A program made the position numbers and the translations under genes. A stretch of DNA of 64,000 nt from the NCBI GenBank assembly GCA_016218705.1, contig JACRDC010000049.1, forward strand, positions 21,660-85,659, read 5' to 3'. Below are positions 9,707 to 22,344 of the stretch, in pieces. Position 1 is the first letter of the stretch. Every line of letters begins with the position of its first letter. The stretch comes from Desulfarculus sp. (GTDB lineage Bacteria > Desulfobacterota > Desulfarculia > Desulfarculales > Desulfarculaceae). The notes beneath the pieces are model-generated. The model was not told the origin of the DNA and searched no databases. It saw nothing but the letters and a program-made list of their open reading frames with translations.

Positions 9707-10369
9707 CTAGATGGACCCGAAGTAGGTCTTCTCGATCAGCTCGAAGTTGCGCTTGATGTTCTCGGCGCCTTTGAGCATGGGGCCGTGGCCGGGCAGCAGC
9801 CATTGCAGGTCGAGCGCGGCCATGCGCTGGATGGACTCTTTGAGCGCCGCGCCGTCGCCGCCAGGGAAGTCCACGCGGCCCACCCCCTGGGCGAAGATCA
9901 AATCGCCGGCAAATAGCGCCTTGTGCCGGGGCCAGTACAGGCAAATGTGCCCCGGCGAGTGGCCGGGTGTGTGCAGCACCTCAAAGGCCTCCTGGCCGGC
10001 CTTGAGCTCGCCCTCTTCCAGCAGGATGTCCATTTGCATCTCGGGCAGGCTCATGCCCAGGGAGGCGGCCATCTGGCGGCCTTCCTTGTCCAGATAGGCC
10101 ACCTCGCGGGCGTGCATGGCCACGCGCAGGCCGGCCTTTTGCAGGGGCAGGGCTGCTTCCAGGTGGTCGGGGTGGCAGTGGGTGAGCACCACCAACTGGG
10201 GCGGCTGGCTGATGCCGTCCTGGCCCAGGCCCCGTTGCACGTGGGCAAACAGCCGGGTGTGGCCGGGGTCTATGAGTATGGGCAGATCGCCGCCGGCCAG
10301 ATAGGCGTTGCAGTTGTTGGCCGAGGGCTGGGTCCAGGGGTAGGCGTAAAGGTCGTCGGCTAGCTTCAT
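9707..10369 (-). CDS. MBL-fold metallo-hydrolase (glyoxalase II-like)
   Basis: HxHxDH motif (THCHPDH) and downstream HTPGHSPGH. The Met at 10369 (MKLADDLYAYPW) is chosen within ORF 9707..10432. Confidence 0.85.
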   Translation of the reverse strand: MKLADDLYAYPWTQPSANNCNAYLAGGDLPILIDPGHTRLFAHVQRGLGQDGISQPPQLVVLTHCHPDHLEAALPLQKAGLRVAMHAREVAYLDKEGRQMAASLGMSLPEMQMDILLEEGELKAGQEAFEVLHTPGHSPGHICLYWPRHKALFAGDLIFAQGVGRVDFPGGDGAALKESIQRMAALDLQWLLPGHGPMLKGAENIKRNFELIEKTYFGSI

Positions 10370-10463
10370 GGGGCTTCCAATCTCTGTTATTATGGCTGCT
10401 CCAAGTCTGTAGCCAGCGGCCCGGCCTGTCAATCACTTGTGTGCCCTGGCCTGGAGGACGCCC

Positions 10464-11717: not shown

Positions 11718-12405
11718 ATGCTGGGGACTGGTGGCCGGCATGGTCGGGTTGTTGGTGGCGGCGGCCTTTGGCCCGGCTTATGCGGGCAGCAAGTCCGAGG
11801 CCAACCTCAAGACGACCGAGGCCCAGGTGGTGATGGAGCAGGTCATGTCCTCCGGCGACGCCTCCATACCCCAGGACCTGCTGCAAAAGGCCAAGGCCGT
11901 GGCCATCTTCCCGGACATGGTCAAGGCCGGCTTCCTGGTGGGCGGCCAGTACGGCACCGGAGTGGTCATGACCCGCCGGGACGACGGCTCCTGGGGTCCG
12001 CCGGCCTTCTTCACCATGGGCGGGGTGAGCTTCGGGCTGCAATTGGGGGCCCAGGCCGCCGACGTGGTGCTGGTCATCATGAAGCAGCGGGGCCTGGATG
12101 GGCTTTTGACCAACAAGATCAGGTTCGGGGCCGATCTGGGCGTGGCCGTGGGGCCGGTGGGGCGCCGGGGCGAGGCCAGCATCTCTGCGGCCAGCGGCTA
12201 TGCCGACGCCTATTCCTACTCGCGCACCAAGGGCCTGTTCGCGGGACTGTCCCTGGAGGGCGGGGGCATTGAGTATGACGCCCAGACCACGTCCGCCTTC
12301 TATGGCAAGAGCCTGAAGGCGCGCGACGTGCTCAAGGGCGGCAAGGTCTCGCCCCCGGAGCCGGCCCGGACCCTGATGAAGACCATGGACAGCTTCGCGC
12401 GCTAG
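11710..12405 (+). CDS. SYLF (Ysc84/DUF500) lipid-binding domain protein with signal peptide
   Basis: GGQYGTGVVMTRRDDGSWGPPAFFTMGGVSFGLQLGAQAADVVLVIM is characteristic of the SYLF domain. AGGAGG SD present. The start overlaps the TPR gene stop by 8 nt. Confidence 0.8.
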   Translation: MTKCWGLVAGMVGLLVAAAFGPAYAGSKSEANLKTTEAQVVMEQVMSSGDASIPQDLLQKAKAVAIFPDMVKAGFLVGGQYGTGVVMTRRDDGSWGPPAFFTMGGVSFGLQLGAQAADVVLVIMKQRGLDGLLTNKIRFGADLGVAVGPVGRRGEASISAASGYADAYSYSRTKGLFAGLSLEGGGIEYDAQTTSAFYGKSLKARDVLKGGKVSPPEPARTLMKTMDSFAR

Positions 12406-12517
12406 CCGGCGCGCCCGGGCCAAGGGGCTAATGGCCCTCTTGGCCCTGTTCGTACACTGGCCGGCTGGGGCGCCGCAAGGCCCCGGCCGGCTTTTCTCAA
12501 CCCGTGGGGCCGGGGGC

Positions 12518-12787
12518 CTAGCAGGTGCCGCAGCCCTTGGCCCGGTGGTCGTCGTACCATGACCTGACCAGTTGCCTTAGCTCCCCACGCTCCAGCTTGA
12601 GCATCTGGCCGATTTCGGCCTTGGTCAGGATGCCGGTGAAAAAGCCAAATTTGCACAGGAAGATCAGGCCTTCGCGGTCTGGCCCCTTCACCTTGCCCTC
12701 GATCCAGGGGGCCACGCCCTGGGCCTCGATACGCTGCAATAGCCTATCATAGCTATGGGAAATGCTGGGATCGTCGGTGATAAGCAT
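12518..12787 (-). CDS. Small hypothetical protein, HTH-like middle segment and C-terminal CxxC, divergent from dsrA
   Basis: 89 aa. Codon composition looks coding. GILTKAEIGQMLKLERGELRQLVRSW is helix-turn-helix-like. The protein ends in KGCGTC. I recognise no family. Confidence 0.5.
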   Translation of the reverse strand: MLITDDPSISHSYDRLLQRIEAQGVAPWIEGKVKGPDREGLIFLCKFGFFTGILTKAEIGQMLKLERGELRQLVRSWYDDHRAKGCGTC

Positions 12788-12864
12788 TGTGCAATTCCGT
12801 TGGGTTTCAACTGGTTGATGTTAACCATTCAAGGGGATTAGGGCAACAAGAGCCGTCTTTTTTG

Positions 12865-12893
12865 TTGACATGCCCCTGGGGGGTTCCTATAAT
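12865..12893 (+). promoter_or_regulatory. Consensus sigma70-type promoter of dsrAB (TTGACA-17 bp-TATAAT)
   Basis: TTGACA 12865-12870 and TATAAT 12888-12893 with a 17-bp spacer, read directly. It lies about 230 nt upstream of dsrA ATG 13130. Confidence 0.6.
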
Positions 12894-13129
12894 CACGAGC
12901 ATTGTGAATATGGGGGCTTGTTTGTTCCCTATAGGAATCACGGCATTTTAGCCTCTACATGCCGACATCGCCGAGAACGCGGCGGCCACAGACGCCGGAG
13001 GCGGGGAGGCAGCAACAGGGGTTGATGCCCGGGCCTAGGGCGGCGGCATTGATTCCCCGCGGTCAGGGGCCGAGTTTTCGCGATTGAAACCATTGTCCCA
13101 CTTGCAACACTTAGCGGAGGTACTATTCC

Positions 13130-14401
13130 ATGGCGAAAAAGCATCAGACTCCGATGCTGGATGAGCTGGAAAAGGGACCTTGGCCTAGCTTCGTTACCGA
13201 CATCAAGCGTATGGCTGAGACCGGTAAAGATGCTTGCGCCGACCTTTTGGGCCAGCTGGAGCTCTCCTACAAGGATAAGGAGGGCCATTGGAAGCACGGC
13301 GGCATCGTGGGCGTGCTGGGTTATGGCGGCGGCGTCATAGGCCGTTACTCCGACGTTCCCGATCTCTTCCCCGGCGTCGAGCACTTCCACACCGTGCGCG
13401 TCAATCAGCCGGCGGCCAAGTACTACCACAGCGAGTCCATTCGCAAGATCATGGACATCTGGAACCGCCGCGGCTCGGGCATGCTCAACATGCACGGCTC
13501 CACCGGCGACATCATTATGCTCGGCGCCTTCACCGACGAGTTGGAGAACATCTTCGCCGAGCTGACCTCCCTGGGCTGGGACCTGGGCGGCTCGGGTTCG
13601 GCCCTGCGCACCCCCTCTTCCTGCCTGGGCCAGAGCCGGTGCGAGTTCGCCTGCATCAACGCCGAGGACATCTGCTACGACCTGACCCAGTCCTACCAGG
13701 ACGAGTTGCACCGTCCGGCCTGGCCCTACAAGTTCAAGTTCAAGGTGGACGGCTGCCCCAACTGCTGCGTGGCCTCCCTGGCCCGCTCCGACTGCGCCAT
13801 CATCGGTACCTGGCGTGACGACATCCGCATTGACAAGGCCGCCGTGGCCGCCTACGCCGCCGGCGAGTTCGCGGCCAATGGTGGCGCCCACGGCCAGGAC
13901 GTCAAACTGGACATCCAGAAGGACGTCTGTGACCTGTGCCCCACCCAGTGCATGGCCTGGGACGGCAAGACCTTGTCCATCAACAACAAAGAGTGCACCC
14001 GCTGCATGCACTGCATCAACATGATGCCGCGCGCCCTGCGTCCGGGCAAGGACACCGGCGCCAGCATCCTGGTGGGCGCCAAGGCCCCCATCCTCGACGG
14101 CGCCCAGATGGGCTCGGTTATCGTGCCCTTCATCAAGATGGAGCCACCCTACGAGGAGTTCAAAGAGTTCGTTGAAAAGATGTGGGAGTGGTGGGACGAG
14201 AACGGCAAGAACCGCGAGCGCATCGGTGAAACCATCCAGCGCCTGGGCCTGGGCACCTTCCTGGCTGCCGTGGAAGTGGAACCCGATCCCCGCCATGTCA
14301 AAGAGCCCCGCTCCAACCCCTACGTCTTCTACAAGGAGGACGAGGTGCCCGGCGGCTTCGACCGCAAGATCGAGGACTACCGCAAGCGTCACGCTCGCTA
14401 G
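13130..14401 (+). CDS. dsrA: Dissimilatory sulfite reductase alpha subunit
   Basis: 423 aa. Sirohaem/FeS Cys motifs SCLGQSRCEFAC and GCPNCC, ferredoxin insert CDLCPTQC...CTRCMHC. GGAGG SD. Followed by dsrB 24 nt later. Confidence 0.97.
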   Translation: MAKKHQTPMLDELEKGPWPSFVTDIKRMAETGKDACADLLGQLELSYKDKEGHWKHGGIVGVLGYGGGVIGRYSDVPDLFPGVEHFHTVRVNQPAAKYYHSESIRKIMDIWNRRGSGMLNMHGSTGDIIMLGAFTDELENIFAELTSLGWDLGGSGSALRTPSSCLGQSRCEFACINAEDICYDLTQSYQDELHRPAWPYKFKFKVDGCPNCCVASLARSDCAIIGTWRDDIRIDKAAVAAYAAGEFAANGGAHGQDVKLDIQKDVCDLCPTQCMAWDGKTLSINNKECTRCMHCINMMPRALRPGKDTGASILVGAKAPILDGAQMGSVIVPFIKMEPPYEEFKEFVEKMWEWWDENGKNRERIGETIQRLGLGTFLAAVEVEPDPRHVKEPRSNPYVFYKEDEVPGGFDRKIEDYRKRHAR

Positions 14402-14425
14402 TCAGGGAAAAGGAGGATTCAATCC

Positions 14426-15499
14426 ATGGCAGAGCGACTTACTGATATCGGACCGCCTAAATACGATCTCTTTTGGCCCCAGGTCATCAAGGACAATGCC
14501 GGCAAGTGGTTGTACCACGACATCCTGGAGCCCGGCGTACTCCTGCACGTGTCCGAGACAGGCGCCAAGATCTGGAGCGTGCGTTGCGGCACCACCCGCC
14601 TCATGACCACCATGATGGTCGAGGATATCTGCAAGCTGGCCGACCAGTTCTGCGACGGCCACTTCCGGTTCACCACGCGTAACAACGTGGAGTTCCTGGT
14701 GGTGGACGAGTCCAAGCTTGAGCCCTTGAAGAAGGCCCTCAAAGCGGCCGGCAACCTGCCCATCGGCGGCACCGGCGCTAGCATCACCAACATCGTCCAC
14801 ACCCAGGGGTGGGTGCATTGCCACACTCCGGCCATTGACGCCTCCGGCGTGGTCAAGGCCGTCATGGACGATCTGTTCGAGTACTTCGGCTCCCACAAGA
14901 TGCCGGCCCAGGTCCGCATTTCGCTGGCCTGCTGCCTCAACATGTGCGGCGCCGTGCACTGCTCCGACATCGCCATCCTGGGCGTGCACCGCAAGCCTCC
15001 GGTTATCGAGCACACCCACTTGGACAAGATGTGCGAAATCCCCACCACCATCGCTTCTTGCCCCACCGCCGCCATCAAGCCGGCCAAGGTGGATGATTTC
15101 AAGAGCGTGGCGGTGAACGCCGACCGCTGCATGTTCTGCGGCAACTGCTACACCATGTGCCCCGCCATGCCGCTGGCCGACGCCGACGGCGACGGCATCG
15201 CCCTGTGGGTGGGCGGCAAGGTCAGCAACTCCAAGTCCATGCCCAAGTTCTCCAAGCTGGCCGTGCCCTTCATCCCCAACGAGCCCCCCCGTTGGCCCAC
15301 CACTGTCAAGATGGTGCGCCAGATCGTGGAGGCCTACGTGGCCGGCGCCAACCGCTACGAGCGTCTGGGCGAGTGGGCCGAGCGTATTGGCTGGGAGCGC
15401 TTCTTCGAGAAGACCGGCCTGGAGTTCACCCACCACCACATCGACGACTACCGCTTCGCGGCGACCACCTGGCGGACCTCCACCCAGTTCAAGTGGTAG
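14426..15499 (+). CDS. dsrB: Dissimilatory sulfite reductase beta subunit
   Basis: 357 aa. [26 protein letters not shown], ferredoxin-like CPTAAI...[20 protein letters not shown]. Confidence 0.97.
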
Positions 15500-15540
15500 G
15501 ACCGCCGCAGGGTCGGTAGCCCCGATCCTTGGCATGAAAC

Positions 15541-15580
15541 CGCTACCCGGGGCCGTACAGCGGTCCCGGGTAGCGCATTT
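15541..15580 (+). terminator. Hairpin after dsrB (11-bp perfect stem) followed by CATTTT; possible attenuating terminator
   Basis: CGCTACCCGGG (15541-15551) pairs with CCCGGGTAGCG (15565-15575). The T-tract is weak. Confidence 0.45.
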
Positions 15581-15651
15581 TACCTCCCTGGGTTCCGGCG
15601 GCCTGGCCGGCGGCACCTCCAGGATCCTCAACTTACGCACGGAAAACCGCC

Positions 15652-16461
15652 GTGGCCGCCAAAAAGACCCTACTTAAAAACAATTACCAATTCCTGCTGC
15701 TGGGCTTTTTTGTGGCCCTGGCCGTGTACACGTATTTCCAAGACCGCGACAAGGAAGGCCCCGGCCGCTTCTTCGATGGCTACCAGGGCACCCTGGTGGT
15801 CCTGGACCTGCAAAGCGGGGAATACCAGCGCTTCAAGCCCGCCCAGGCGGCCAAGCGCCTGTCCCCCTGCTCCACCTTCAAGGTACCCAACGCCCTCATC
15901 GGCCTGGAGACGGGGGTGGTCTCCGGCCCGGACCACCTCTTGACCTGGGACGGGCAGCAGCGCCCCCTGGCGGCCTGGAACCAGAACCACACCCTGCATA
16001 CGGCCATGGAGAACTCGGTGGTGTGGTACTATCAGGAACTGGCCGCCGCCGTGGGGCCGGAGCGCATGGCCGAATACCTTAAAGCATTTGCTTACGGCAA
16101 TCAGGACGTCTCCGGGGGCATCTCTCGGTTTTGGCTGGGCAATAGCCTTCAAATCTCGGCTGACGAGCAGGTGGAGTTTTTACGCAAACTTTATGCGGAT
16201 GCCCTGCCCGCCCGGCCCGAGAACCAGGCCCTGGTGCGCGGCATGCTTGTGCTGCCCAAGACCGGCCAGGCCCAGCTCAGCGGTAAGACCGGCACCAACG
16301 TGGTCAACGGCAAGGCCACCCTGGGCTGGTTCGTGGGGCATGTGGCCAAGGACGGAAAGGCCCATGTCTTTGCCTGCAACATCGAGGCCGCCGACCAGGC
16401 CACCGGCGCCAAGGCCCGGCTGATCGTCGAGAAGGCCTTGCGGGCCAAGGGGTTGTTGTAG
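15652..16461 (+). CDS. Class D (OXA-type) serine beta-lactamase-like protein with N-terminal hydrophobic segment
   Basis: 269 aa. Motifs S74-T-F-K77, S122-V-V, Y148-G-N, W161, K212-T-G and GWFVGH occur with OXA-like spacing (Ser-to-SxV 48 residues, Ser-to-KTG 138 residues). Stop TAG overlaps the dsrN GTG. Confidence 0.85.
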   Translation: MAAKKTLLKNNYQFLLLGFFVALAVYTYFQDRDKEGPGRFFDGYQGTLVVLDLQSGEYQRFKPAQAAKRLSPCSTFKVPNALIGLETGVVSGPDHLLTWDGQQRPLAAWNQNHTLHTAMENSVVWYYQELAAAVGPERMAEYLKAFAYGNQDVSGGISRFWLGNSLQISADEQVEFLRKLYADALPARPENQALVRGMLVLPKTGQAQLSGKTGTNVVNGKATLGWFVGHVAKDGKAHVFACNIEAADQATGAKARLIVEKALRAKGLL

Positions 16462-17858
16462 TGGATCGGCCCCTGCCGCGCCTGGTGGTGGCCGCCCTCA
16501 GGGGGGGCTCGGGCAAGACCACCATAACCCTGGGGCTGATCCAGGCCCTGAAGAACCGCGGTCTGTCGGTCAAGCCATTTAAGAAGGGGCCCGACTACAT
16601 TGACCCCTTCTGGCACGGCGAGGCCGCCGGCACCCCCTGCCACAACCTGGACCCCTTCATGCTGGGCCGCGAGCAGGCGCTGGCCTCCTTCGGGCATTTC
16701 AGCCAGGGGTTCGAGGCGGCCCTGGTGGAGGGCAATCGGGGCCTTTTCGACGGCATGGACGCCACAGGCAGCCAATCCACGGCCGAGCTGGCCAAATGGC
16801 TGAAGGCCCCGGTGGTGCTGGTGGTGGACTGCTCCATGGCCAGCCGCACCGTGGCGGCGGTGGTGCTGGGCTGCCAGCGCTTCGACCCCGGCCTCAACCT
16901 GGCCGGGGTGGTGCTCAACCCGGTGGCCAACGCCCGCCAGGAGGGGGTCATCCGACGGGCCATCGAGGATACCACCGGCATCCCGGTGCTGGGGGCCGTG
17001 CCCCGGCTCAAGCTGTCCATGCCCGAGCGCCATATGGGCCTGTTGCCTCCCCAGGAGCACCGCCAGGTGGCCGATTCCCTGCGCCTGGCCGCCGAGGGCG
17101 TGGCCACCCACGTGGACGTGGAGGCCCTGTGGGGGCTGATGCGCTCGGCCCCGCCCTGGCCGGAGACGCCCCCGCCCCAGGGGTTGTTCCCCCCAGGGCC
17201 GCCAACCGGCGGCCGGCCATTGATCGGCGTGGTGCGCGACGCCGCCTTTGGCTTCTACTATCCCGAGAACCTGGACGCCCTGCAAAACCATGGCGCCCGC
17301 CTGGTCTTCTGCTCGGCCCTGGAGGATGCCGGCCTGCCCCCCGGCCTGGGGGCGTTGTACATCGGCGGCGGCTTTCCCGAGACCCACGCCAAGCTCCTGG
17401 CCGACAACCTGGCCTTCCGCCAGGCCATCCAGCGGGCGGCCAACCAGGGCCTGCCCATCTACGCCGAGTGCGGCGGCCTGATGTACCTGGGGCGCAATCT
17501 GCGGGTCGAGGGGCGAGCCTATCCCATGGCCGGGGTGTTTCCCCTGGACTTCGCCATGCAGAAGCGCCCCCAGGGGCACGGCTACACCCTCTGCCGGGTG
17601 GTGGGAGCCAACCCCTTCCTGCCCGTGGGCACCGAGTTCAAGGCCCACGAGTTCCACTACTCCCAGGCGCAAGCCCTGGAGGGCGCGGAATATAGCTTTG
17701 CGTACCAGGTGGTTAGGGGTCAGGGCCTCCTGGGGACCGGCGAGGGCCTCCGCCTCAACAACGTGCTGGGCACTTATCACCACGTACACGCCCTGGGCCT
17801 GCCCCAGTGGGCGCCCGGCCTGGTGCGGGCGGCCTCGGCCGGGGTAGAAGTTTCTTGA
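16461..17858 (+). CDS. dsrN: Cobyrinate a,c-diamide synthase family protein; by context DsrN (sirohaem amidase)
   Basis: 465 aa. CbiA-type P-loop GGSGKTT and glutamine amidotransferase Cys in AECGGLMYL. Located between dsrB and dsrD. Confidence 0.85.
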   Translation: MDRPLPRLVVAALRGGSGKTTITLGLIQALKNRGLSVKPFKKGPDYIDPFWHGEAAGTPCHNLDPFMLGREQALASFGHFSQGFEAALVEGNRGLFDGMDATGSQSTAELAKWLKAPVVLVVDCSMASRTVAAVVLGCQRFDPGLNLAGVVLNPVANARQEGVIRRAIEDTTGIPVLGAVPRLKLSMPERHMGLLPPQEHRQVADSLRLAAEGVATHVDVEALWGLMRSAPPWPETPPPQGLFPPGPPTGGRPLIGVVRDAAFGFYYPENLDALQNHGARLVFCSALEDAGLPPGLGALYIGGGFPETHAKLLADNLAFRQAIQRAANQGLPIYAECGGLMYLGRNLRVEGRAYPMAGVFPLDFAMQKRPQGHGYTLCRVVGANPFLPVGTEFKAHEFHYSQAQALEGAEYSFAYQVVRGQGLLGTGEGLRLNNVLGTYHHVHALGLPQWAPGLVRAASAGVEVS

Positions 17859-17934
17859 CAGGGTGGATGGCCGGCGATATGGTGGGGTCTGTTATTTTTA
17901 GCAAAAGTACGCTAAGCCAAGGAGGTTAGAGGAT

Positions 17935-18165
17935 ATGTCAGACGTCAGAGCGTTGGTGTTGCAGGTCTTGGAGAAGAAGCAAAAACGCATGATGATGAAC
18001 GACCTGCTGAAGGAGGTCCAGAAGCTGGACGAGAGCGTAAAAAAGAAGGATATCAAGCCGGTTACCACCGAGATGATCAACGATGGTACCCTGGCCTACT
18101 GGTCCAGCGGCTCCACCACCTACTTCGCGCTGCCCGGCTCCAAGGCCCCCGAGGGCGAGGACTAG
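17935..18165 (+). CDS. dsrD: DsrD
   Basis: 76 aa. The conserved DsrD block LAYWSSGSTTYFAL compares with EYWSSGSTTMYGL in Desulfovibrio DsrD as I recall it. AAGGAGG SD. Confidence 0.9.
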   Translation: MSDVRALVLQVLEKKQKRMMMNDLLKEVQKLDESVKKKDIKPVTTEMINDGTLAYWSSGSTTYFALPGSKAPEGED

Positions 18166-18202
18166 TCCTCGGCGTCCCCAGCCGGCGTCCCAAGCTTTTT
18201 TT

Positions 18203-18254
18203 AGGCCCCTTCCCCTGGGTCCGGTGCGCCGGTCCCAGGCGAAGGGGCCTTCTT
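18203..18254 (+). terminator. Long GC hairpin after dsrD
   Basis: AGGCCCCTTC (18203-18212) pairs with GAAGGGGCCT (18241-18250). Inner stems are CCTGGG/CCCAGG and CCGG/CCGG. TCTT follows. Confidence 0.6.
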
Positions 18255-18334
18255 GACCTGCCGGGCGGGCCAGGCCTGCCTACCTTCAAACAGCCGCCGC
18301 CGGCCCTTGGCTGGCGGGGCCAAGGCGCGAGCAT

Positions 18335-18976
18335 ATGTCCAAGATCGAGAATCCCAGCGGCATCCCCGACGACGACCTCATGCGCGAGGGGCTGATCGAC
18401 CGCCTGAGCCAGTACCTGGCCGCCGAGCCCGGGGCCTGGCACGTGCGCTACAATCTGGGGGTGGCCATGGCCCACGAGGGCCGCCTGGACGAGGCCCTGG
18501 AGCAGTTCGGGCTGGTACTGAAGGACGCCCCCAAGCACATGCAGAGCCTGGTCAATATCGGCGGCATCCACTTGTCGCGCGGCGACGCCGGCGAGGCCCT
18601 TAAGGCCTTCTCCTCGGCCTTGATGGTCTGGGACGTGCCCGTGGTGCGGGCCAACCTGGCCGTGGCCTACCTGCAACTGGACCGGCTGGAGGAGGCTGAG
18701 CGCGAGTTGCGCCGCGCCCTGGCCATGGACCCCAAGATGCCAGACGCGCTCACTAACTTGGGTAGCCTGCTGCTTCGGCGGGAGCGCTACGCCGAGTCGG
18801 CCGAGGCCAGCCGCCAGGCCCTGGAGCTGAGCCCGGATTTTGCCATGGCCTGCAACAACCTGGCCCTGGCGCTTCTGGCCCTGGAGCAGGTGGATCAGGC
18901 CCGGGAGCAGGCGGCCCGGGCCAAAGAGTTGGGCTACCCGGTGCACCCCGACCTGCTGGCCAGCCTGGGGTTATAG
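18335..18976 (+). CDS. Tetratricopeptide repeat protein
   Basis: 213 aa with several canonical 34-residue TPR units (e.g. WHVRYNLGVAMAHEGRLDEALEQFGLVLKDAP). Confidence 0.75.
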   Translation: MSKIENPSGIPDDDLMREGLIDRLSQYLAAEPGAWHVRYNLGVAMAHEGRLDEALEQFGLVLKDAPKHMQSLVNIGGIHLSRGDAGEALKAFSSALMVWDVPVVRANLAVAYLQLDRLEEAERELRRALAMDPKMPDALTNLGSLLLRRERYAESAEASRQALELSPDFAMACNNLALALLALEQVDQAREQAARAKELGYPVHPDLLASLGL

Positions 18977-19057: not shown

Positions 19058-19957
19058 ATGGAAGCCTTGGGGACCCTGGTCTTTGGCATCCTGCCCCACG
19101 CCGCCCTGGCGGTACTGCTGGGCGGGTGCGCCTGGCGCCTGTGGGGCTGGGCGGCCACCCCGGAGCCTTGGCCCCAGCCCTTGACCCCGGCCCCCGCCGG
19201 CCGGGCCGGAGTGGCTTGGCGGTTCTTGTGGCAGGCCCTGGCCATGCCGGCCCTGTGGCGGGCCAACCCCATACTGTGGGCCTTGGTCTGGCTGCTGCAC
19301 CTGTGCCTGCTGCTCACCTTCCTGCACCACCTGCGCCTGTTCGTGCAGCCGGTGCCGGAGTGGCTCATGGCCCTGCGCGCCCCCGGCCGCCTGGCCGGGC
19401 ACCTGCTACCCCTACTCTTGCTTATATTGTTGATGCGCCGCCTGGCCGGCCCAGTGCTGCGCCGGCTCTCGGTCTGGGAGGACTATCTGGCCCCGGCCCT
19501 GCTTTTGGCCTTGAGCCTTAGCGGCCTGGCCATGCACAGTCTGGAGCGGCCCCCCCTGGTGGAAATCAAGGCCCTGGCCCTGGGGCTCGTGGGCCTGCGC
19601 GCCGCCCCCTCGCCACCGGCCGGGCTGTTCTGGTTGCACTTCCTGCTGGCCCTGGGGCTGTGCTGCTACCTGCCCTGGGGCAAGCTGATGCACGGGGCCG
19701 GCCTGTGGTTGAGCCCGGGCCTGGGCCAGCCCGACAGCCTCCGTTCACGCGCCGCGGCCGCCACCGGCCAAGCCGCCACCCTGGTCCAGCCCGGCCCGCC
19801 GGAAACCTCCGCCTGGGGACCCGAGGAATACCGCGCCGCTCTGAAGAACCGCTGGGCCGGGGCCGGGGTGCACCGGGTCATGGGCGCCCGCGAGCGGGCG
19901 CAGAGCCTCACCGGCCACCGCCAGTGGCCAGGCCCGGGAGGCGACCATGGCCGCTGA
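19058..19957 (+). CDS. DsrM/NarI-like integral membrane dihaem cytochrome b candidate
   Basis: 299 aa, about 5 TM helices. N-terminus and His-containing helices (LHLCLLLTFLHH, GLAMH, LHFLL...GKLMH) resemble the DsrM/HmeC/NarI family. Overlaps the following HdrD-like gene by 11 nt. Confidence 0.7.
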   Translation: MEALGTLVFGILPHAALAVLLGGCAWRLWGWAATPEPWPQPLTPAPAGRAGVAWRFLWQALAMPALWRANPILWALVWLLHLCLLLTFLHHLRLFVQPVPEWLMALRAPGRLAGHLLPLLLLILLMRRLAGPVLRRLSVWEDYLAPALLLALSLSGLAMHSLERPPLVEIKALALGLVGLRAAPSPPAGLFWLHFLLALGLCCYLPWGKLMHGAGLWLSPGLGQPDSLRSRAAAATGQAATLVQPGPPETSAWGPEEYRAALKNRWAGAGVHRVMGARERAQSLTGHRQWPGPGGDHGR

Positions 19958-21407
19958 GTCCTGGCCGGCGCCCGCCATGGCGCTGGGCGCGTCGGCCGAT
20001 CAGGCCTGCCTGCCGGCCCAGGCCAACGACCTTGAGGCCCTGGGCCTGCCGGAAGCGTTGCCCCCGGACTGGCGCCAGCGTCTTTTGGGGGCCTTTGGCC
20101 AGGCCCTGGAGGGGCAGCGCGGCCTGCGCCAGGCCTTGGAGGCCTGCGTGGGCTGCGGGGCCTGCCACCAGTCTTGTTCGTTCCACCTGGGCACCGGCGA
20201 CCCCCACAACACCCCGCAAGGCCGCGCCGACTTGGCCAGGCGGTTGTACCGGCGGCATTTTTCGCCTCGGGCGCGGCTGTTGGGCCGGTGGGGCCAGCCA
20301 AGGGATATCCTTGATGAAGACCTGCTGGGCCTTTGGCGGGCCTATTTCTGGCAGTGTACCCTCTGCCGCCGCTGCACCCTGTTCTGCCCCCTGGGCATAG
20401 ACACCTCCCTGGTCACTCGGGCCTGCCGCCACATCCTGGCCCAAGTGGGACAGGTGCCTGGGCATGTCGCCCGCGAGTTCTTGGGCATCCTGGGCAGCGG
20501 CAACGGCCAAGGCCTGCCGCCAGCCGCCTGGACCGCCCGGCACCAGGCCCTGGAGGAGGAGCTCCTGCGCGAGACCGGCCAGGCCATGGCCTGCCCCGTG
20601 GACGAGCAGGGCGCGGACGTGCTCTTGATCCCCTCGCCCCAGGAGCCCTTCAGCCAATCCGCCACCTACAAGGGCTACGCCAAGGTCTTCCACGCCGCCG
20701 GCCTGTCCTGGACCACCAGCACCTACTTGAACCAGGCCAGCAATCCCGGCCTCTGGCTGGGTCCCCGCCAGGCGGCCCTGGTGGGGCGCCGGGTGTTGGA
20801 GGCCACCCGCCTGCTCAAGCCCCGGCACATCGTCGTCGCCGAGAGCGGACAGGGATGGGCGGTCTTGCGCAACCTGGGGGCGGTGCTGGCCGGCGGCTTG
20901 GCCGGCGAGAAATACCTCAAGGCCAAGGAGCCCCTGCATATCTGCCAGCTCAGCAGCCGCCTGCTCAAGGAGGGGGCCTTTGCCGGCGTCCTGCGGCCCC
21001 AGGCCCTGCAGGGGGTCAAACCGGTGTTTCACGAGCCCTGCCAGGTGGCGCGCTCCGGCGGGCTGGGCCAGGAGCCCCGCCGCCTGCTCAAGGCCGCCTG
21101 CCTGGGCTGGCTGGAGATGCCCAAACCCGTGGGCGGCCCCCTAACCCTGTGCTGCGGGGCCGGCGGCGGGCTCAACGCCCCGGAGCTGTACCAAGTCCGC
21201 CTGGCCGGCCTGATGCCCCTGGCCCGGGCCTTGGCCCAGGCCCAGCGCCGCCAGGGCTGCACCGCCGTGGTGACCATGTGCGCCACCTGCCAGGACCAAC
21301 TGGGCGAGGGGCTGGCCCACTTCGGTCTGGGCCTGACCGTGCACGGGGTGCACGAGTTCCTGGGCCAGGCCCTGTACCCCTCGCGCCCGGCGGAGGCCAG
21401 GCCGTGA
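19947..21407 (+). CDS. DsrK/HdrD-like iron-sulfur (CCG-domain) oxidoreductase
   Basis: 486 aa. Two ferredoxin motifs, CVGCGACHQSC and CTLCRRCTLFCP. C-terminal Cys-rich CCG region (LCCGAGGG, CATCQDQ). Confidence 0.8.
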   Translation: MAAESWPAPAMALGASADQACLPAQANDLEALGLPEALPPDWRQRLLGAFGQALEGQRGLRQALEACVGCGACHQSCSFHLGTGDPHNTPQGRADLARRLYRRHFSPRARLLGRWGQPRDILDEDLLGLWRAYFWQCTLCRRCTLFCPLGIDTSLVTRACRHILAQVGQVPGHVAREFLGILGSGNGQGLPPAAWTARHQALEEELLRETGQAMACPVDEQGADVLLIPSPQEPFSQSATYKGYAKVFHAAGLSWTTSTYLNQASNPGLWLGPRQAALVGRRVLEATRLLKPRHIVVAESGQGWAVLRNLGAVLAGGLAGEKYLKAKEPLHICQLSSRLLKEGAFAGVLRPQALQGVKPVFHEPCQVARSGGLGQEPRRLLKAACLGWLEMPKPVGGPLTLCCGAGGGLNAPELYQVRLAGLMPLARALAQAQRRQGCTAVVTMCATCQDQLGEGLAHFGLGLTVHGVHEFLGQALYPSRPAEARP

Positions 21408-21430
21408 GGCCGGGGCAGGGCAGGGGCCTG

Positions 21431-21701
21431 ATGGTCGGGGCGTTGGTCCTGGCCGGGCTGGCCCTGGCCGCCTGCGCCCCGCCGGCCCCGCCCCCCCGGC
21501 GCCAAGGCCAGGGCCGGGGCCATGCGGCCCGAGTATCACCAGCCGGCCCCCTGGTGGCGCGACCGGCACGCGCTGCTCCTGGAGCGGGCCGCCGCCGGGC
21601 TCAGGCTGGCCGACTGCCGGGTCTGCCACCAGCCCTCCCAGGCCTGCCGGCCCTGCCACGCCTATGTGGGCCTGCCCCCCGGGGAGGCCGACCGTGACTA
21701 G
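21431..21701 (+). pseudogene. Putative dihaem c-type cytochrome lipoprotein; signal peptide and haem domain are in different frames across a C7 tract (frameshift or sequencing error)
   Basis: ATG 21431 encodes MVGALVLAGLALAAC (lipobox LAAC). From 21498 the +1 frame encodes ...YHQPAPWWRDRHALLLE...ADCRVCHQPSQACRPCHAYVG, ending at TAG 21699-21701. The frames switch at C7 21491-21497. Confidence 0.45.
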
Positions 21702-22344
21702 ACCGCCGGCAAATCCGGGAGGGCGGGGCCGCCCCGGCCCGTGGGTCTGGCTGGAGCGCCGCCTGGGCCTGGGCGAGGCCTTTCGCCAGCGCTACCTGGA
21801 GCGCCAGGTGCCGGCATTGCGCGGCTGGCCCCAGTATTTCCACCGCTGCCTGGGGGGGCTGAGCCTGCTGCTCTTGGTGGTGCAACTCCTCACGGGGCTC
21901 TTTTTGCTGCTGCACTACCGGCCCGAGCCCGGCCAGGCCCTGGCCAGCCTGATGCGCATGGAGGCCCAGGTCTGGGGGGGCTGGGCGCTCAGACGGGCCC
22001 ACGCCGTGGGTGGCAACCTCTTGCCGTGGCTGGTGAGCCTGCATATGCTCAAGGTGCTGTGGCGGGGCGCCTTTCATGATCCCCGCGAACTCAACTGGCT
22101 CAGCGGCGCGCTGCTGTGGCTGGCCAGCCTGGCCATGCTGGTCAGCGGCGGGTTGTTGCCCGCCACCCAGGGCGCCTGGCGGGGGCTGGCCACCCTGTGC
22201 CAGGCCCTGGGCCTGGACCCGCCGGGCCTGGAGGGCCTGGGTCTGGCCCATGGCCTGCATCTGGGCCTGCCCTGGCTGATGCTCCTGGCCCTGTGGGCCC
22301 ACCTGGCCATGGTGCGCCGCCTGGGCCTGGCCGAGCCTTTGTGA
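21694..22344 (+). CDS. Cytochrome b N-terminal domain protein (b6-like)
   Basis: WLERRLGLGEAFRQRYLERQVP...YFHRCLGG resembles the cytochrome b6 N-terminus. Two His pairs sit 14 residues apart (AHAVGGNLLPWLVSLH; LHLGLPWLMLLALWAH). GTG 21694 follows GGGGAGG; ATG 21664 is an alternative start. Confidence 0.8.
   Translation: MTRPPANPGGRGRPGPWVWLERRLGLGEAFRQRYLERQVPALRGWPQYFHRCLGGLSLLLLVVQLLTGLFLLLHYRPEPGQALASLMRMEAQVWGGWALRRAHAVGGNLLPWLVSLHMLKVLWRGAFHDPRELNWLSGALLWLASLAMLVSGGLLPATQGAWRGLATLCQALGLDPPGLEGLGLAHGLHLGLPWLMLLALWAHLAMVRRLGLAEPL

What the first reader, a model, noticed from the sequence alone, without database searches (positions are those of the whole stretch)
15541..16463. Class D beta-lactamase-like gene inserted inside the dsr operon and translationally coupled to dsrN
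Seen: all class D serine beta-lactamase motifs (STFK, SVV, YGN, W, KTG, GWFVGH) occur with OXA-like spacing in a 269-aa ORF located between dsrB and dsrN. Its TAG stop shares a base with the dsrN GTG (TAGTG, 16459-16463). Upstream there is only a hairpin with a weak T-tract and no recognisable promoter.
Established: dsrAB is usually followed by dsrD and/or dsrN. I know of no serine-hydrolase gene belonging to dsr loci.
Inference: either a resistance-type gene landed in a highly expressed operon, or the protein has another acyl-transfer or amide-related role. DsrN itself makes an amide on sirohaem.
Basis: partly seen in the sequence, partly recalled or inferred. Interest (0 to 1): 0.65.

Follow-up and report, generated by a model that had tools for sequence, protein, structure and literature searches.

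The report
Class D beta-lactamase gene inside dsr operon
A complete, exported class D (OXA-like) beta-lactamase-family gene has been kept for a long time between the sulfite reductase gene dsrB and the sirohaem amidase gene dsrN in one branch of the sulfate-reducing family Desulfarculaceae; it most likely acts on beta-lactams in the periplasm and simply borrows the operon's transcription.

Summary
ORF 15652-16461 (+, 269 aa, GTG start) encodes a class D beta-lactamase-fold protein with every catalytic motif. Its TAG stop shares a base with the GTG of dsrN (TAGTG, 16459-16463). It lies downstream of a strong hairpin that follows dsrB.

The gene is not a recent arrival. Eight contigs with 68-88% identical proteins all show dsrB-hairpin-bla-dsrN with a stop/start overlap. 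dN/dS is about 0.3, dS tracks that of dsrN, and GC3 matches the neighbours. Three more divergent class D lineages (about 45-56% identical) sit directly upstream of dsrN, or one gene upstream, in sister Desulfarculaceae lineages, sometimes beside a hemerythrin gene. More basal Desulfarculaceae (Desulfocarbo and others) and all other families sampled have dsrB followed directly by dsrN.

The protein carries a conserved N-terminal membrane anchor, or a cleavable signal peptide in one lineage, so it faces the periplasm. DsrAB, DsrN and sirohaem are cytoplasmic. An amide-chemistry role with DsrN is therefore unlikely.

Best reading: an intrinsic, vertically inherited class D beta-lactamase or penicillin-acylated hydrolase, transcribed by read-through and translationally coupled to dsrN. 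Activity and expression are untested. Interest is moderate.

The parts
12865..12893 (+). Sigma-70-like promoter (TTGACA-17-TATAAT, 12 of 12 matches) upstream of dsrA; the likely source of transcription for the whole unit
13130..14401 (+). dsrA
   Evidence: TIGR02064, 587 bits
14426..15499 (+). dsrB
   Evidence: TIGR02066, 524 bits
15504..15533 (+). Small stem-loop immediately after the dsrB stop codon, kept in the bla1 loci through changed bases
15541..15575 (+). Strong hairpin CGCTACCCGGGGCCG...CGGTCCCGGGTAGCG followed by TTTT. Its outer 11 bp (CGCTACCCGGG / CCCGGGTAGCG) are nucleotide-invariant in the bla1 loci and are also present in three Desulfarculaceae loci that lack the insert (one arm shorter by a base in L011). 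Read as a pre-existing attenuator or mRNA 3' stabiliser of dsrAB
15576..15651 (+). Poorly conserved spacer between the hairpin and the bla start codon. It has no promoter-like site and only a weak Shine-Dalgarno sequence (GGA at 15641-15643)
15652..16461 (+). Class D beta-lactamase-family gene (269 aa, lineage bla1)
15682..15756 (+). N-terminal hydrophobic helix (residues 11-35) after a basic KK..K cluster: a signal anchor, N-in/C-out, conserved across bla1, P0125 and P0133
15871..15882 (+). S-T-F-K motif: the nucleophile Ser74 and Lys77, the lysine that is carboxylated in class D enzymes
   Evidence: invariant
16015..16023 (+). S-V-V motif (Ser122)
16093..16101 (+). Y-G-N motif
16129..16137 (+). 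F-W-L; Trp161 corresponds to OXA Trp154
16285..16293 (+). K-T-G motif
16447..16452 (+). AAGGGG, a Shine-Dalgarno-like site for dsrN lying inside the last codons of bla (K-G-L-L)
16459..16463 (+). TAGTG: the bla stop codon and the dsrN start codon share base 16461
   Evidence: equivalent overlaps
16461..17858 (+). dsrN (CobB/CbiA-type glutamine amidotransferase)
17855..17883 (+). Promoter-like site (TTGACA-17-TATGGT) in front of dsrD
17935..18165 (+). dsrD
   Evidence: PF08679

Best explanation
The gene encodes an intrinsic, chromosomally fixed member of the class D (OXA-type) serine beta-lactamase family. The protein is inserted into the inner membrane by an uncleaved N-terminal signal anchor, with its catalytic domain in the periplasm. 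There it is most likely acylated by beta-lactams on Ser74 and hydrolyses them through a carboxylated Lys77, as other class D enzymes do.

Its place in the dsr cluster is an old, lineage-specific insertion into the short spacer between a pre-existing hairpin after dsrB and the dsrN start codon. The gene has no promoter of its own. It would be transcribed by polymerases from the dsrA promoter that read through the hairpin. dsrN, which lost its own spacer and Shine-Dalgarno sequence, is now translated by ribosomes that terminate on bla (a stop/start overlap, with the Shine-Dalgarno site inside the bla codons).

Shown here:
- family membership by sequence and fold;
- conserved catalytic residues;
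- the export signal;
- conserved synteny and stop/start overlap;
- purifying selection.

Inferred, not shown:
- beta-lactam hydrolysis;
- read-through transcription;
- actual translational coupling;
- absence of any role in sulfite reduction.
For: Family and fold:
- NCBIfam class D main, E = 2.8e-72; PDB BPU-1, BAT-2, BSU-2, OXA-10 and OXA-48 at E = 1e-51 to 1e-44.
- The AlphaFold model (pLDDT 92) matches BPU-1 with TM 0.93 and rmsd 1.0 A.
- S74, K77, S122, Y148, G149, W161 and K212-T-G are invariant across 49 homologues, including all four dsrN-linked lineages.

Export:
- There is a basic N-terminus followed by a 25-residue helix, conserved in sequence across the clade.
- The sister lineage has a classical A-x-A signal peptide.

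Age and selection:
- Eight of eight checked bla1 contigs show dsrB-hairpin-bla-dsrN with a stop/start overlap.
- dN/dS is 0.27-0.34, dS parallels that of dsrN, and GC3 is 0.84 against 0.87-0.92 for the neighbours.

Insertion into a pre-existing site:
- The same hairpin follows dsrB in Desulfocarbo and in other Desulfarculaceae where dsrN follows directly.
- No promoter-like site lies between the hairpin and bla, and that spacer is not conserved.

Not a general dsr component:
- Among the 80 best dsrB loci of GTDB species genomes, and among 34 metagenome dsrN loci, only a Desulfarculaceae subclade has the gene.
- The nearest outgroup homologues come from Riflebacteria, Phycisphaerae, Anaerolineae and Cyanobacteria, or from contexts without dsr genes.

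Precedent: intrinsic, cell-associated class D enzymes are active in a strict anaerobe, Clostridium difficile (PMC6299217).
Against: - No activity, expression or topology data exist. No RNA run holds the gene.
- The NCBIfam class D equivalog score is 242.8, just under the cut-off of 250. The BlaR1 sensor-domain model scores equally well, so a slow-deacylating penicillin-binding protein cannot be told apart from a true hydrolase by sequence.
- Four class D lineages that are only 45-56% identical to each other are all kept next to dsrN. In one case (L128) no dsrB lies within 2.6 kb upstream. This linkage is more persistent than expected for a neutral hitch-hiker and could reflect a functional tie that I cannot see.
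- Some Gram-positive class D homologues are known, from my own knowledge of B. subtilis YbxI, to have low activity.
Confidence: 0.6

Rival explanations
1. The protein is a membrane-tethered penicillin-binding or sensor-type class D domain, like the extracellular domain of BlaR1/MecR1. It is acylated by beta-lactams or a related ligand but does not turn over, and it acts by binding or signalling rather than detoxification.
For: - The NCBIfam BlaR1 model scores its sensor part (positions 353-584) as well as, or slightly better than, the class D model for most bla1 proteins tested: 244.4 against 242.8, 247.5 against 240.7, and 232 against 224. The most divergent member, P0011, scores the other way (232 against 237).
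- JGI names P0007 and P0009 'BlaR1'.
- The domain is membrane-tethered by a conserved, probably uncleaved anchor.
- The BlaR1 sensor structure 1nrf matches at E = 2e-46.
Against: - There is no M56 protease or 4-TM transducer domain. The protein is 269 aa with only PF00905.
- No blaI/mecI-type repressor is adjacent.
- The best structural matches are true enzymes: BPU-1, BAT-2, BSU-2, OXA-10 and OXA-48.
- The sister lineage bla2 is predicted to be soluble in the periplasm and scores only to the class D enzyme model.
Confidence: 0.15
2. The class D protein has been recruited to a function tied to dissimilatory sulfite reduction or to DsrN. Examples would be acting on a non-beta-lactam amide or ester in the envelope, or placing dsrN translation at the membrane. 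Selection would then keep the bla-dsrN pair together.
For: - Four divergent class D lineages all lie immediately upstream of dsrN, or one gene upstream, across 17 contigs.
- In L128 the bla-dsrN pair persists with no dsrB within 2.6 kb upstream.
- The stop/start overlap is conserved while its sequence changes.
- Trees of the catalytic domain do not unite the lineages. Repeated capture at one site, which would imply selection, is therefore not excluded.
Against: - The catalytic domain is predicted to be periplasmic, whereas DsrAB, DsrN, DsrD and sirohaem are cytoplasmic.
- Most Desulfarculaceae and all other families sampled do without the gene.
- L006 lost bla but kept the neighbouring hemerythrin gene.
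- The same gap also holds unrelated genes (hemerythrin, a DUF362 gene on the opposite strand), which fits a permissive insertion site.
- The active site is a canonical class D site with no lineage-specific change in catalytic residues.
- Linkage to dsrN is expected anyway once dsrN translation depends on bla.
Confidence: 0.12
3. The ORF is kept mainly as a translated leader that delivers ribosomes to dsrN, and its enzymatic function is dispensable or decaying.
For: - dsrN has no spacer or independent Shine-Dalgarno region. Its Shine-Dalgarno-like AAGGGG lies in the last bla codons and is predicted to pair with dsrN codons 4-6 in several loci.
- bla has a GTG start and a weak Shine-Dalgarno sequence.
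Against: - dN/dS of about 0.3 applies over the whole gene, not just the 3' end.
- All catalytic residues are invariant across lineages that are only about 45-56% identical.
- The export signal is maintained.
- In bla2 loci the gene is kept although it is not coupled to dsrN; the two are separated by 120 nt or by a hemerythrin gene.
Confidence: 0.05

Closest known systems
Class D beta-lactamases of Gram-positive bacteria (BPU-1 of Bacillus pumilus, BSU-2/YbxI, BAT-2; CDD-1/2 of Clostridium difficile)
   Same: - Best sequence and structure matches: 5ctn at E = 2.4e-51, 40% identity, TM 0.93, rmsd 1.0 A.
- Chromosomal and intrinsic.
- An N-terminal extension or anchor has to be removed for soluble expression (PMC6299217).
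- CDD enzymes show that class D enzymes work in a strict anaerobe.
   Different: - The host is a Gram-negative-type sulfate reducer of the Desulfarculaceae.
- The gene has no promoter of its own. It is embedded in an energy-metabolism operon and overlaps the next gene.
- Identity is only about 40%, and activity is untested.
OXA-type class D beta-lactamases of Gram-negative bacteria (OXA-10, OXA-48 families)
   Same: - Same fold and all active-site motifs, with 34-37% identity.
- The YGNQDxSGGIxxFWL segment is close to that of OXA-10; this comparison rests on my own knowledge of the OXA-10 sequence.
   Different: - Scores to every named OXA family model are far below their cut-offs, for example 159 bits against 580 for OXA-10-like.
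- It is not on an integron cassette, plasmid or transposon.
- It has a signal anchor rather than a cleaved signal peptide.
BlaR1/MecR1 beta-lactam sensor-transducers (C-terminal sensor domain)
   Same: The sensor-domain part of the BlaR1 model scores 244 bits, and 1nrf matches at E = 2e-46. The class D-like domain is tethered to the membrane and faces outward.
   Different: - It lacks the 4-TM and zinc-protease transducer.
- It lacks the partner repressor gene.
- It is 269 aa, against about 585 aa for BlaR1.
Canonical dsrAB-dsrN / dsrABD clusters of sulfate reducers
   Same: The flanking genes dsrA, dsrB, dsrN, dsrD and dsrMK are ordinary. The hairpin after dsrB and the dsrB-dsrN adjacency are shared with relatives.
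   Different: In the other loci sampled where both genes were found, dsrB is followed directly by dsrN or dsrD, apart from a few loci with larger gaps that I did not examine. Only this Desulfarculaceae subclade carries a serine hydrolase gene, a hemerythrin gene or both in the gap. The large dsr synteny study I searched does not mention lactamases (PMC10504309).

Membership tests
Class D (OXA-type) serine beta-lactamase | Two-domain class D alpha/beta fold | tested here: met
   AlphaFold model with pLDDT 92. The top 50 Foldseek hits are all class D enzymes, with TM up to 0.94 when normalised by target length.
Class D (OXA-type) serine beta-lactamase | S-x-x-K with the nucleophilic Ser and the Lys that is carboxylated | tested here: met
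   S74-T-F-K77, invariant in 49 homologues. Carboxylation itself was not testable.
Class D (OXA-type) serine beta-lactamase | The S-x-V, Y-G-N and K-T/S-G motifs, and the Trp that stabilises the carboxy-lysine | tested here: met
   S122-V-V, Y148-G-N, K212-T-G and W161. One clade member (P0004) has Y-G-D.
Class D (OXA-type) serine beta-lactamase | Score above the curated NCBIfam equivalog cut-off (NF012161, 250 bits) | tested here: not met
   The window protein scores 242.8 bits. dsrN-linked relatives score 213-254, and only P0125 passes. This is a narrow miss, shared with many environmental homologues.
Class D (OXA-type) serine beta-lactamase | Export to the periplasm or cell surface | tested here: met
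   Basic N-terminus plus hydrophobic helix 11-35; a cleavable signal peptide in lineage bla2. This is prediction only.
Class D (OXA-type) serine beta-lactamase | Hydrolysis of beta-lactams, typically dependent on bicarbonate | not testable with these tools
   Needs the purified protein and nitrocefin, penicillin or oxacillin kinetics.
BlaR1/MecR1 sensor-transducer | N-terminal 4-TM region with an M56 zinc-protease domain | tested here: not met
   The protein is 269 aa. Only positions 353-584 of the 585-position model match, and Pfam finds only PF00905.
BlaR1/MecR1 sensor-transducer | Adjacent BlaI/MecI repressor gene | tested here: not met
   The neighbours are dsrB and dsrN.
Core or accessory Dsr protein | Co-occurrence with dsrAB across sulfite and sulfate reducers | tested here: not met
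   Present only in a Desulfarculaceae subclade. Absent from about 70 other dsrB loci and from at least 8 further Desulfarculaceae dsrB-dsrN loci.
Core or accessory Dsr protein | Cellular location compatible with DsrAB, DsrN and sirohaem (cytoplasm) | tested here: not met
   A signal anchor or signal peptide is predicted.
Mobile resistance cassette (integron, transposon or plasmid borne OXA) | Flanking attC site or repeats, a nearby integrase or transposase, atypical composition | tested here: not met
   - The 3' end overlaps dsrN, which leaves no room for an attC site.
- No integrase or transposase lies among the ORFs between 9.7 and 22.4 kb.
- GC3 of 0.84 resembles the neighbours.
- Synteny is stable across relatives.
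- No dedicated attC model was run.

The most novel reading that the evidence does not exclude
The class D domain is not just a passenger. A subclade of Desulfarculaceae has kept, or repeatedly re-acquired, a periplasmic class D serine hydrolase directly upstream of dsrN. This would be because its co-expression or coupled translation with the sirohaem amidase matters for sulfite respiration, or because the enzyme has a natural substrate that is not a beta-lactam. That would be the first physiological role for a class D beta-lactamase fold outside antibiotic hydrolysis or sensing.
Probability: 0.1. Interest if true: 0.8.

Novelty: new member of a known kind. Interest (0 to 1): 0.4.

Why it matters
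First, it documents an intrinsic class D beta-lactamase-family gene in uncultured, strictly anaerobic sulfate reducers from groundwater and sediments. The gene is wired into the transcription unit of the core respiratory enzyme. That adds to the picture of an ancient environmental reservoir of OXA-like genes.

Second, it is a clean natural example of how a foreign gene can become locked into an essential operon. It took over the spacer and ribosome-binding region of the downstream gene, so dsrN translation now depends on it.

Third, anyone annotating dsr loci or mining resistance genes should know that this gene is a lineage marker of some Desulfarculaceae. It is not evidence of recent resistance transfer, and it is not a new Dsr subunit.

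Tried and rejected
- RNA evidence. No RNA run holds the bla stretch. Two metatranscriptomes that share words with the region cover only dsrAB and dsrD of related organisms, and give essentially nothing from 15478 to 17778. This says nothing about co-transcription in this organism.
- Rfam scan of 12400-18400. Only two sub-threshold chance-level hits appeared, so the hairpin is not a known RNA family.
- Sirohaem or amide chemistry with DsrN. Rejected because of the predicted export.
- Recent horizontal transfer or a mobile cassette. Rejected on composition, dS tracking the neighbours, stable synteny and the absence of mobility genes.
- Single versus repeated capture. NJ trees of 53 and 230 class D proteins and reciprocal HMM ranking do not unite bla1 with the other dsrN-linked lineages. 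The bootstrap for joint monophyly is 38 of 200 in the smaller set and 0 of 100 in the larger. bla2, P0125 and P0133 do cluster.
  - The host DsrB+DsrN tree (carrier lineages monophyletic in 159 of 200 replicates) and the shared N-terminal anchor motif of bla1, P0125 and P0133 favour one old capture with fast divergence.
  - Only distance methods were available, so the question stays open.
- Literature. Searches for class D or lactamase together with dsrN, dsrD or Desulfarculus returned nothing relevant.
- Desulfarculus baarsii DSM 2075. I could not establish the state of the type strain. It did not appear among the 80 loci kept, and none of the listed close relatives comes from a cultured isolate or bears that species name.
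Full report
**1. What is at the coordinates**

The window carries a reductive-type dsr cluster on the + strand:

| Gene | Coordinates |
|---|---|
| dsrA | 13130-14401 |
| dsrB | 14426-15499 |
| 269-codon ORF | 15652-16461 |
| dsrN (CobB/CbiA-type amidase) | 16461-17858 |
| dsrD | 17935-18165 |
| TPR protein | 18335-18976 |
| dsrM-like | 19058-19957 |
| dsrK-like | 19947-21407 |

- The ORF starts with GTG. Its TAG stop (16459-16461) shares base 16461 with the GTG of dsrN.
- The hairpin (15541-15575) has 16 pairs, 12 of them G-C, and is followed by CATTTTACCT.
- Promoter-like sites occur before dsrA (12865-12893, a perfect TTGACA-17-TATAAT) and before dsrD (17855-17883). None occurs before the ORF.
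- The window matches a groundwater metagenome almost completely (99% of sampled words). Its closest relatives are MAGs labelled Desulfarculus sp..

**2. The protein is a class D beta-lactamase-family member**

- Sequence matches:
  - Pfam PF00905, E = 2.7e-37.
  - NCBIfam class D main, 242.8 bits (E = 2.8e-72), just under the curated cut-off of 250.
  - The sensor part of the BlaR1 model scores the same, at 244.4 bits.
- The best solved structures are BPU-1, BAT-2, BSU-2/YbxI, the BlaR1 sensor domain, OXA-10 and OXA-48.
- An AlphaFold model (pLDDT 92) superposes on BPU-1 with TM 0.93 and rmsd 1.0 A. All top 50 Foldseek hits are class D enzymes.
- S74-T-F-K77, S122-V-V, Y148-G-N, W161, K212-T-G and G-W-F-V-G are present. 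The catalytic positions are invariant in an alignment of 49 homologues.

The motif observation is therefore confirmed and is far beyond chance.

**3. The protein is exported**

- Residues 1-10 are basic (KK..K). Residues 11-35 form one long hydrophobic helix in the model.
- This N-terminus is conserved in sequence across the clade (KKTLLKNNxQFLLLxFFVALAVYTYF). That is typical of a retained signal anchor rather than a cleaved signal peptide.
- The charge distribution favours N-in/C-out; this is my own reading of the sequence.
- A sister lineage has a classical cleavable signal peptide ending in A-x-A.
- The catalytic domain should therefore sit in the periplasm. DsrAB, DsrN, DsrD and sirohaem are cytoplasmic; DsrN amidates sirohaem (PMC10504309).

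**4. The gene is old and vertically inherited in a subclade**

- A protein search finds a tight clade, P0001-P0011, at 68-88% identity. Identity then drops to 55% or less.
- Every member whose contig I could read shows dsrB, the hairpin, bla and dsrN. These are P0001, P0004, P0006 (two contigs), P0008, P0010 and P0011; with the window that makes eight contigs.
- In all of them the bla stop overlaps the dsrN start, although the junction sequence differs: TAGTG, TGATG or GTGA.
- Pairwise dN/dS of bla is 0.27-0.34, against 0.15-0.28 for dsrN. Its dS rises in step with that of dsrN. Its GC3 (0.84) resembles its neighbours (0.87-0.92).
- This is a gene under purifying selection that has travelled with its neighbours. 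It is not a recent import.

**5. The wider distribution**

I scanned one genome per GTDB species with DsrB and kept the 80 best loci. A metagenome scan with DsrN added 34 loci.

Outside the Desulfarculaceae (Syntrophobacteraceae, Desulfobulbaceae, Desulfobacterales, Desulfobaccales, Desulfomonilaceae), no locus has a class D gene near dsrB or dsrN.

Inside the family the dsrB-dsrN gap is variable:

| Content of the dsrB-dsrN gap | Loci |
|---|---|
| Nothing; dsrN follows the hairpin after about 20-30 nt | L010 (Desulfocarbo indianensis), L011 |
| No gene found; dsrB-dsrN gap of about 100-280 nt | L012, L094-L096, L099, L101, L102, L104, L127 |
| Hemerythrin gene only | L006 |
| DUF362 gene on the opposite strand | L008 |
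| bla1 | the window clade |
| bla2, a second class D lineage with a cleavable signal peptide, with a hemerythrin gene | L007, L061, L091 |
| bla2 without a hemerythrin gene | L088-L090, L103 |
| Hemerythrin, then a third class D lineage (P0125), then dsrN, again with an overlap | L092 |

A fourth lineage (P0133, L128) lies directly upstream of dsrN, but no dsrB lies within 2.6 kb upstream.

In total, 17 contigs carry a class D gene directly upstream of dsrN, or one gene upstream.

**6. One capture or several?**

- A DsrB+DsrN tree groups the hosts as follows:
  - bla1 hosts form a clade in 200 of 200 replicates.
  - bla2 hosts plus L006 form a clade in 200 of 200.
  - The two groups join in 159 of 200, with the empty-site lineages outside.
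- The catalytic-domain trees do not unite the class D lineages. bla1 plus bla2 are monophyletic in 38 of 200 replicates with 53 sequences, and in 0 of 100 with 230 sequences. bla2, P0125 and P0133 do cluster. Reciprocal HMM ranking shows no special affinity.
- On the other hand, bla1, P0125 and P0133 share a recognisably homologous N-terminal anchor: a basic cluster, then T-x-x-x-N-x-x-F-x-x-L-L-x-F-x-A-L. Outgroup proteins lack it.
- I therefore favour one old insertion followed by fast divergence, replacement of the anchor by a signal peptide in bla2, loss of bla in L006, and gain, loss or rearrangement of the hemerythrin gene. My estimate for this is about 0.7.
- Only distance methods were available, so repeated capture is not excluded.

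**7. How the insertion sits in the operon**

- The outer 11 base pairs of the hairpin (CGCTACCCGGG ... CCCGGGTAGCG) are nucleotide-invariant in all bla1 loci. They are also present in three insert-free Desulfarculaceae loci (L010, L011, L012), with one arm a base shorter in L011.
- The hairpin therefore predates the insertion. It is best read as an attenuator or 3' stabiliser of the dsrAB message.
- This fits the general finding that dsrN is expressed well below dsrAB (PMC13047784).
- The insert occupies the stretch from just after the T-run to the dsrN start codon. It thereby replaced dsrN's own spacer and Shine-Dalgarno sequence.
- The 30-75 nt between the hairpin and the bla GTG are poorly conserved and contain no promoter-like site.
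- A Shine-Dalgarno-like AAGGGG for dsrN lies in the last bla codons (16447-16452). In several loci it is predicted to pair with dsrN codons 4-6. This is weak evidence from short folds.
- Together these features suggest low-level read-through transcription, weak initiation at a GTG, and termination-reinitiation coupling onto dsrN. None of this has been measured.

**8. Function**

The most economical reading is an intrinsic periplasmic, membrane-tethered class D beta-lactamase or penicillin-acylated hydrolase that uses the constitutive dsr transcript.

- Precedents exist for intrinsic, cell-associated class D enzymes in a strict anaerobe (C. difficile CDD-1/2). For those, and for BPU-1, N-terminal segments must be removed to get soluble expression (PMC6299217).
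- Sequence cannot separate a true hydrolase from a slowly deacylating binder of the BlaR1-sensor type. However, the transducer domain and the repressor gene that define BlaR1 systems are absent.
- The persistence of the bla-dsrN pair is notable, including the L128 case where no dsrB lies within 2.6 kb upstream. It is also what one expects once dsrN translation depends on bla. It keeps a small probability alive for a real functional tie.

**9. Novelty**

- I found no paper that mentions a class D or serine beta-lactamase gene in dsr loci. A synteny study covering about 195,000 genomes does not mention lactamases.
- The protein is a new peripheral member of a well-known family.
- The new element is the stable, lineage-specific embedding in the dsr operon with a conserved overlap onto dsrN.
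- Interest is moderate.

Noticed in passing
window 15541-15575 (also L010, L011, L012, L001-L004, L085-L087): The outer 11 bp of the hairpin after dsrB (CGCTACCCGGG...CCCGGGTAGCG) are nucleotide-invariant across the bla1 loci, whose neighbouring genes have dS of 0.15-0.7. They are also kept in three loci without any insert (one arm shorter by a base in L011). This is more conservation than a plain terminator needs. It may be a processing or protein-binding site that sets the dsrAB to dsrN ratio. It has no Rfam match.
   Followed up: partly
L006 7234-7842; L007 8084-8695; L061 1909-2535; L091 2806-3414; L092 478-1062: A hemerythrin-domain gene of about 200 aa (PF01814) occupies the same dsrB-dsrN gap in sister Desulfarculaceae lineages. 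It lies after the class D gene in L007, L061 and L091, before it in L092, and alone in L006. The L092 and L007 copies are only about 50% identical.
   Followed up: partly
L128 1816-3482: In one metagenome contig the class D gene (P0133) and dsrN are adjacent, but no dsrB lies within the 2.6 kb upstream. The upstream genes encode a 248-aa secreted protein of unknown family and, facing the other way, a long protein I did not identify.
   Followed up: partly
window 12518-12787 (-): An 89-aa ORF with no Pfam match lies on the opposite strand upstream of dsrA. An 89-aa (in L002, 73-aa) minus-strand ORF without a Pfam hit occupies the same place in L001, L002, L004 and L088. It could be a small regulator of the dsr cluster.
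   Followed up: no
window 12865-12893 and 17855-17883: A perfect sigma-70 consensus (TTGACA-17-TATAAT) lies about 240 nt upstream of dsrA. A second promoter-like site overlaps the end of dsrN, just before dsrD. This suggests that dsrD is transcribed separately from bla-dsrN.
   Followed up: no
window 9707-10432 (-): A metallo-beta-lactamase-fold protein (PF00753/ODP) lies 3 kb upstream of dsrA and is syntenic in relatives. It is unrelated to the class D gene but is easily confused with it in annotation tables.
   Followed up: partly
window 19058-22344: The dsrM-like and dsrK-like genes are followed by a cytochrome b gene (PF00033, 21664-22344) and not, in the part I examined, by dsrJOP. The same arrangement occurs in L002 and L004.
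   Followed up: no
L008 7705-9030 (-): In Desulfarculus sp. SURF_10 the dsrB-dsrN gap holds a 441-aa DUF362 gene on the opposite strand. This supports the view that the gap is a permissive insertion site in this family.
   Followed up: partly
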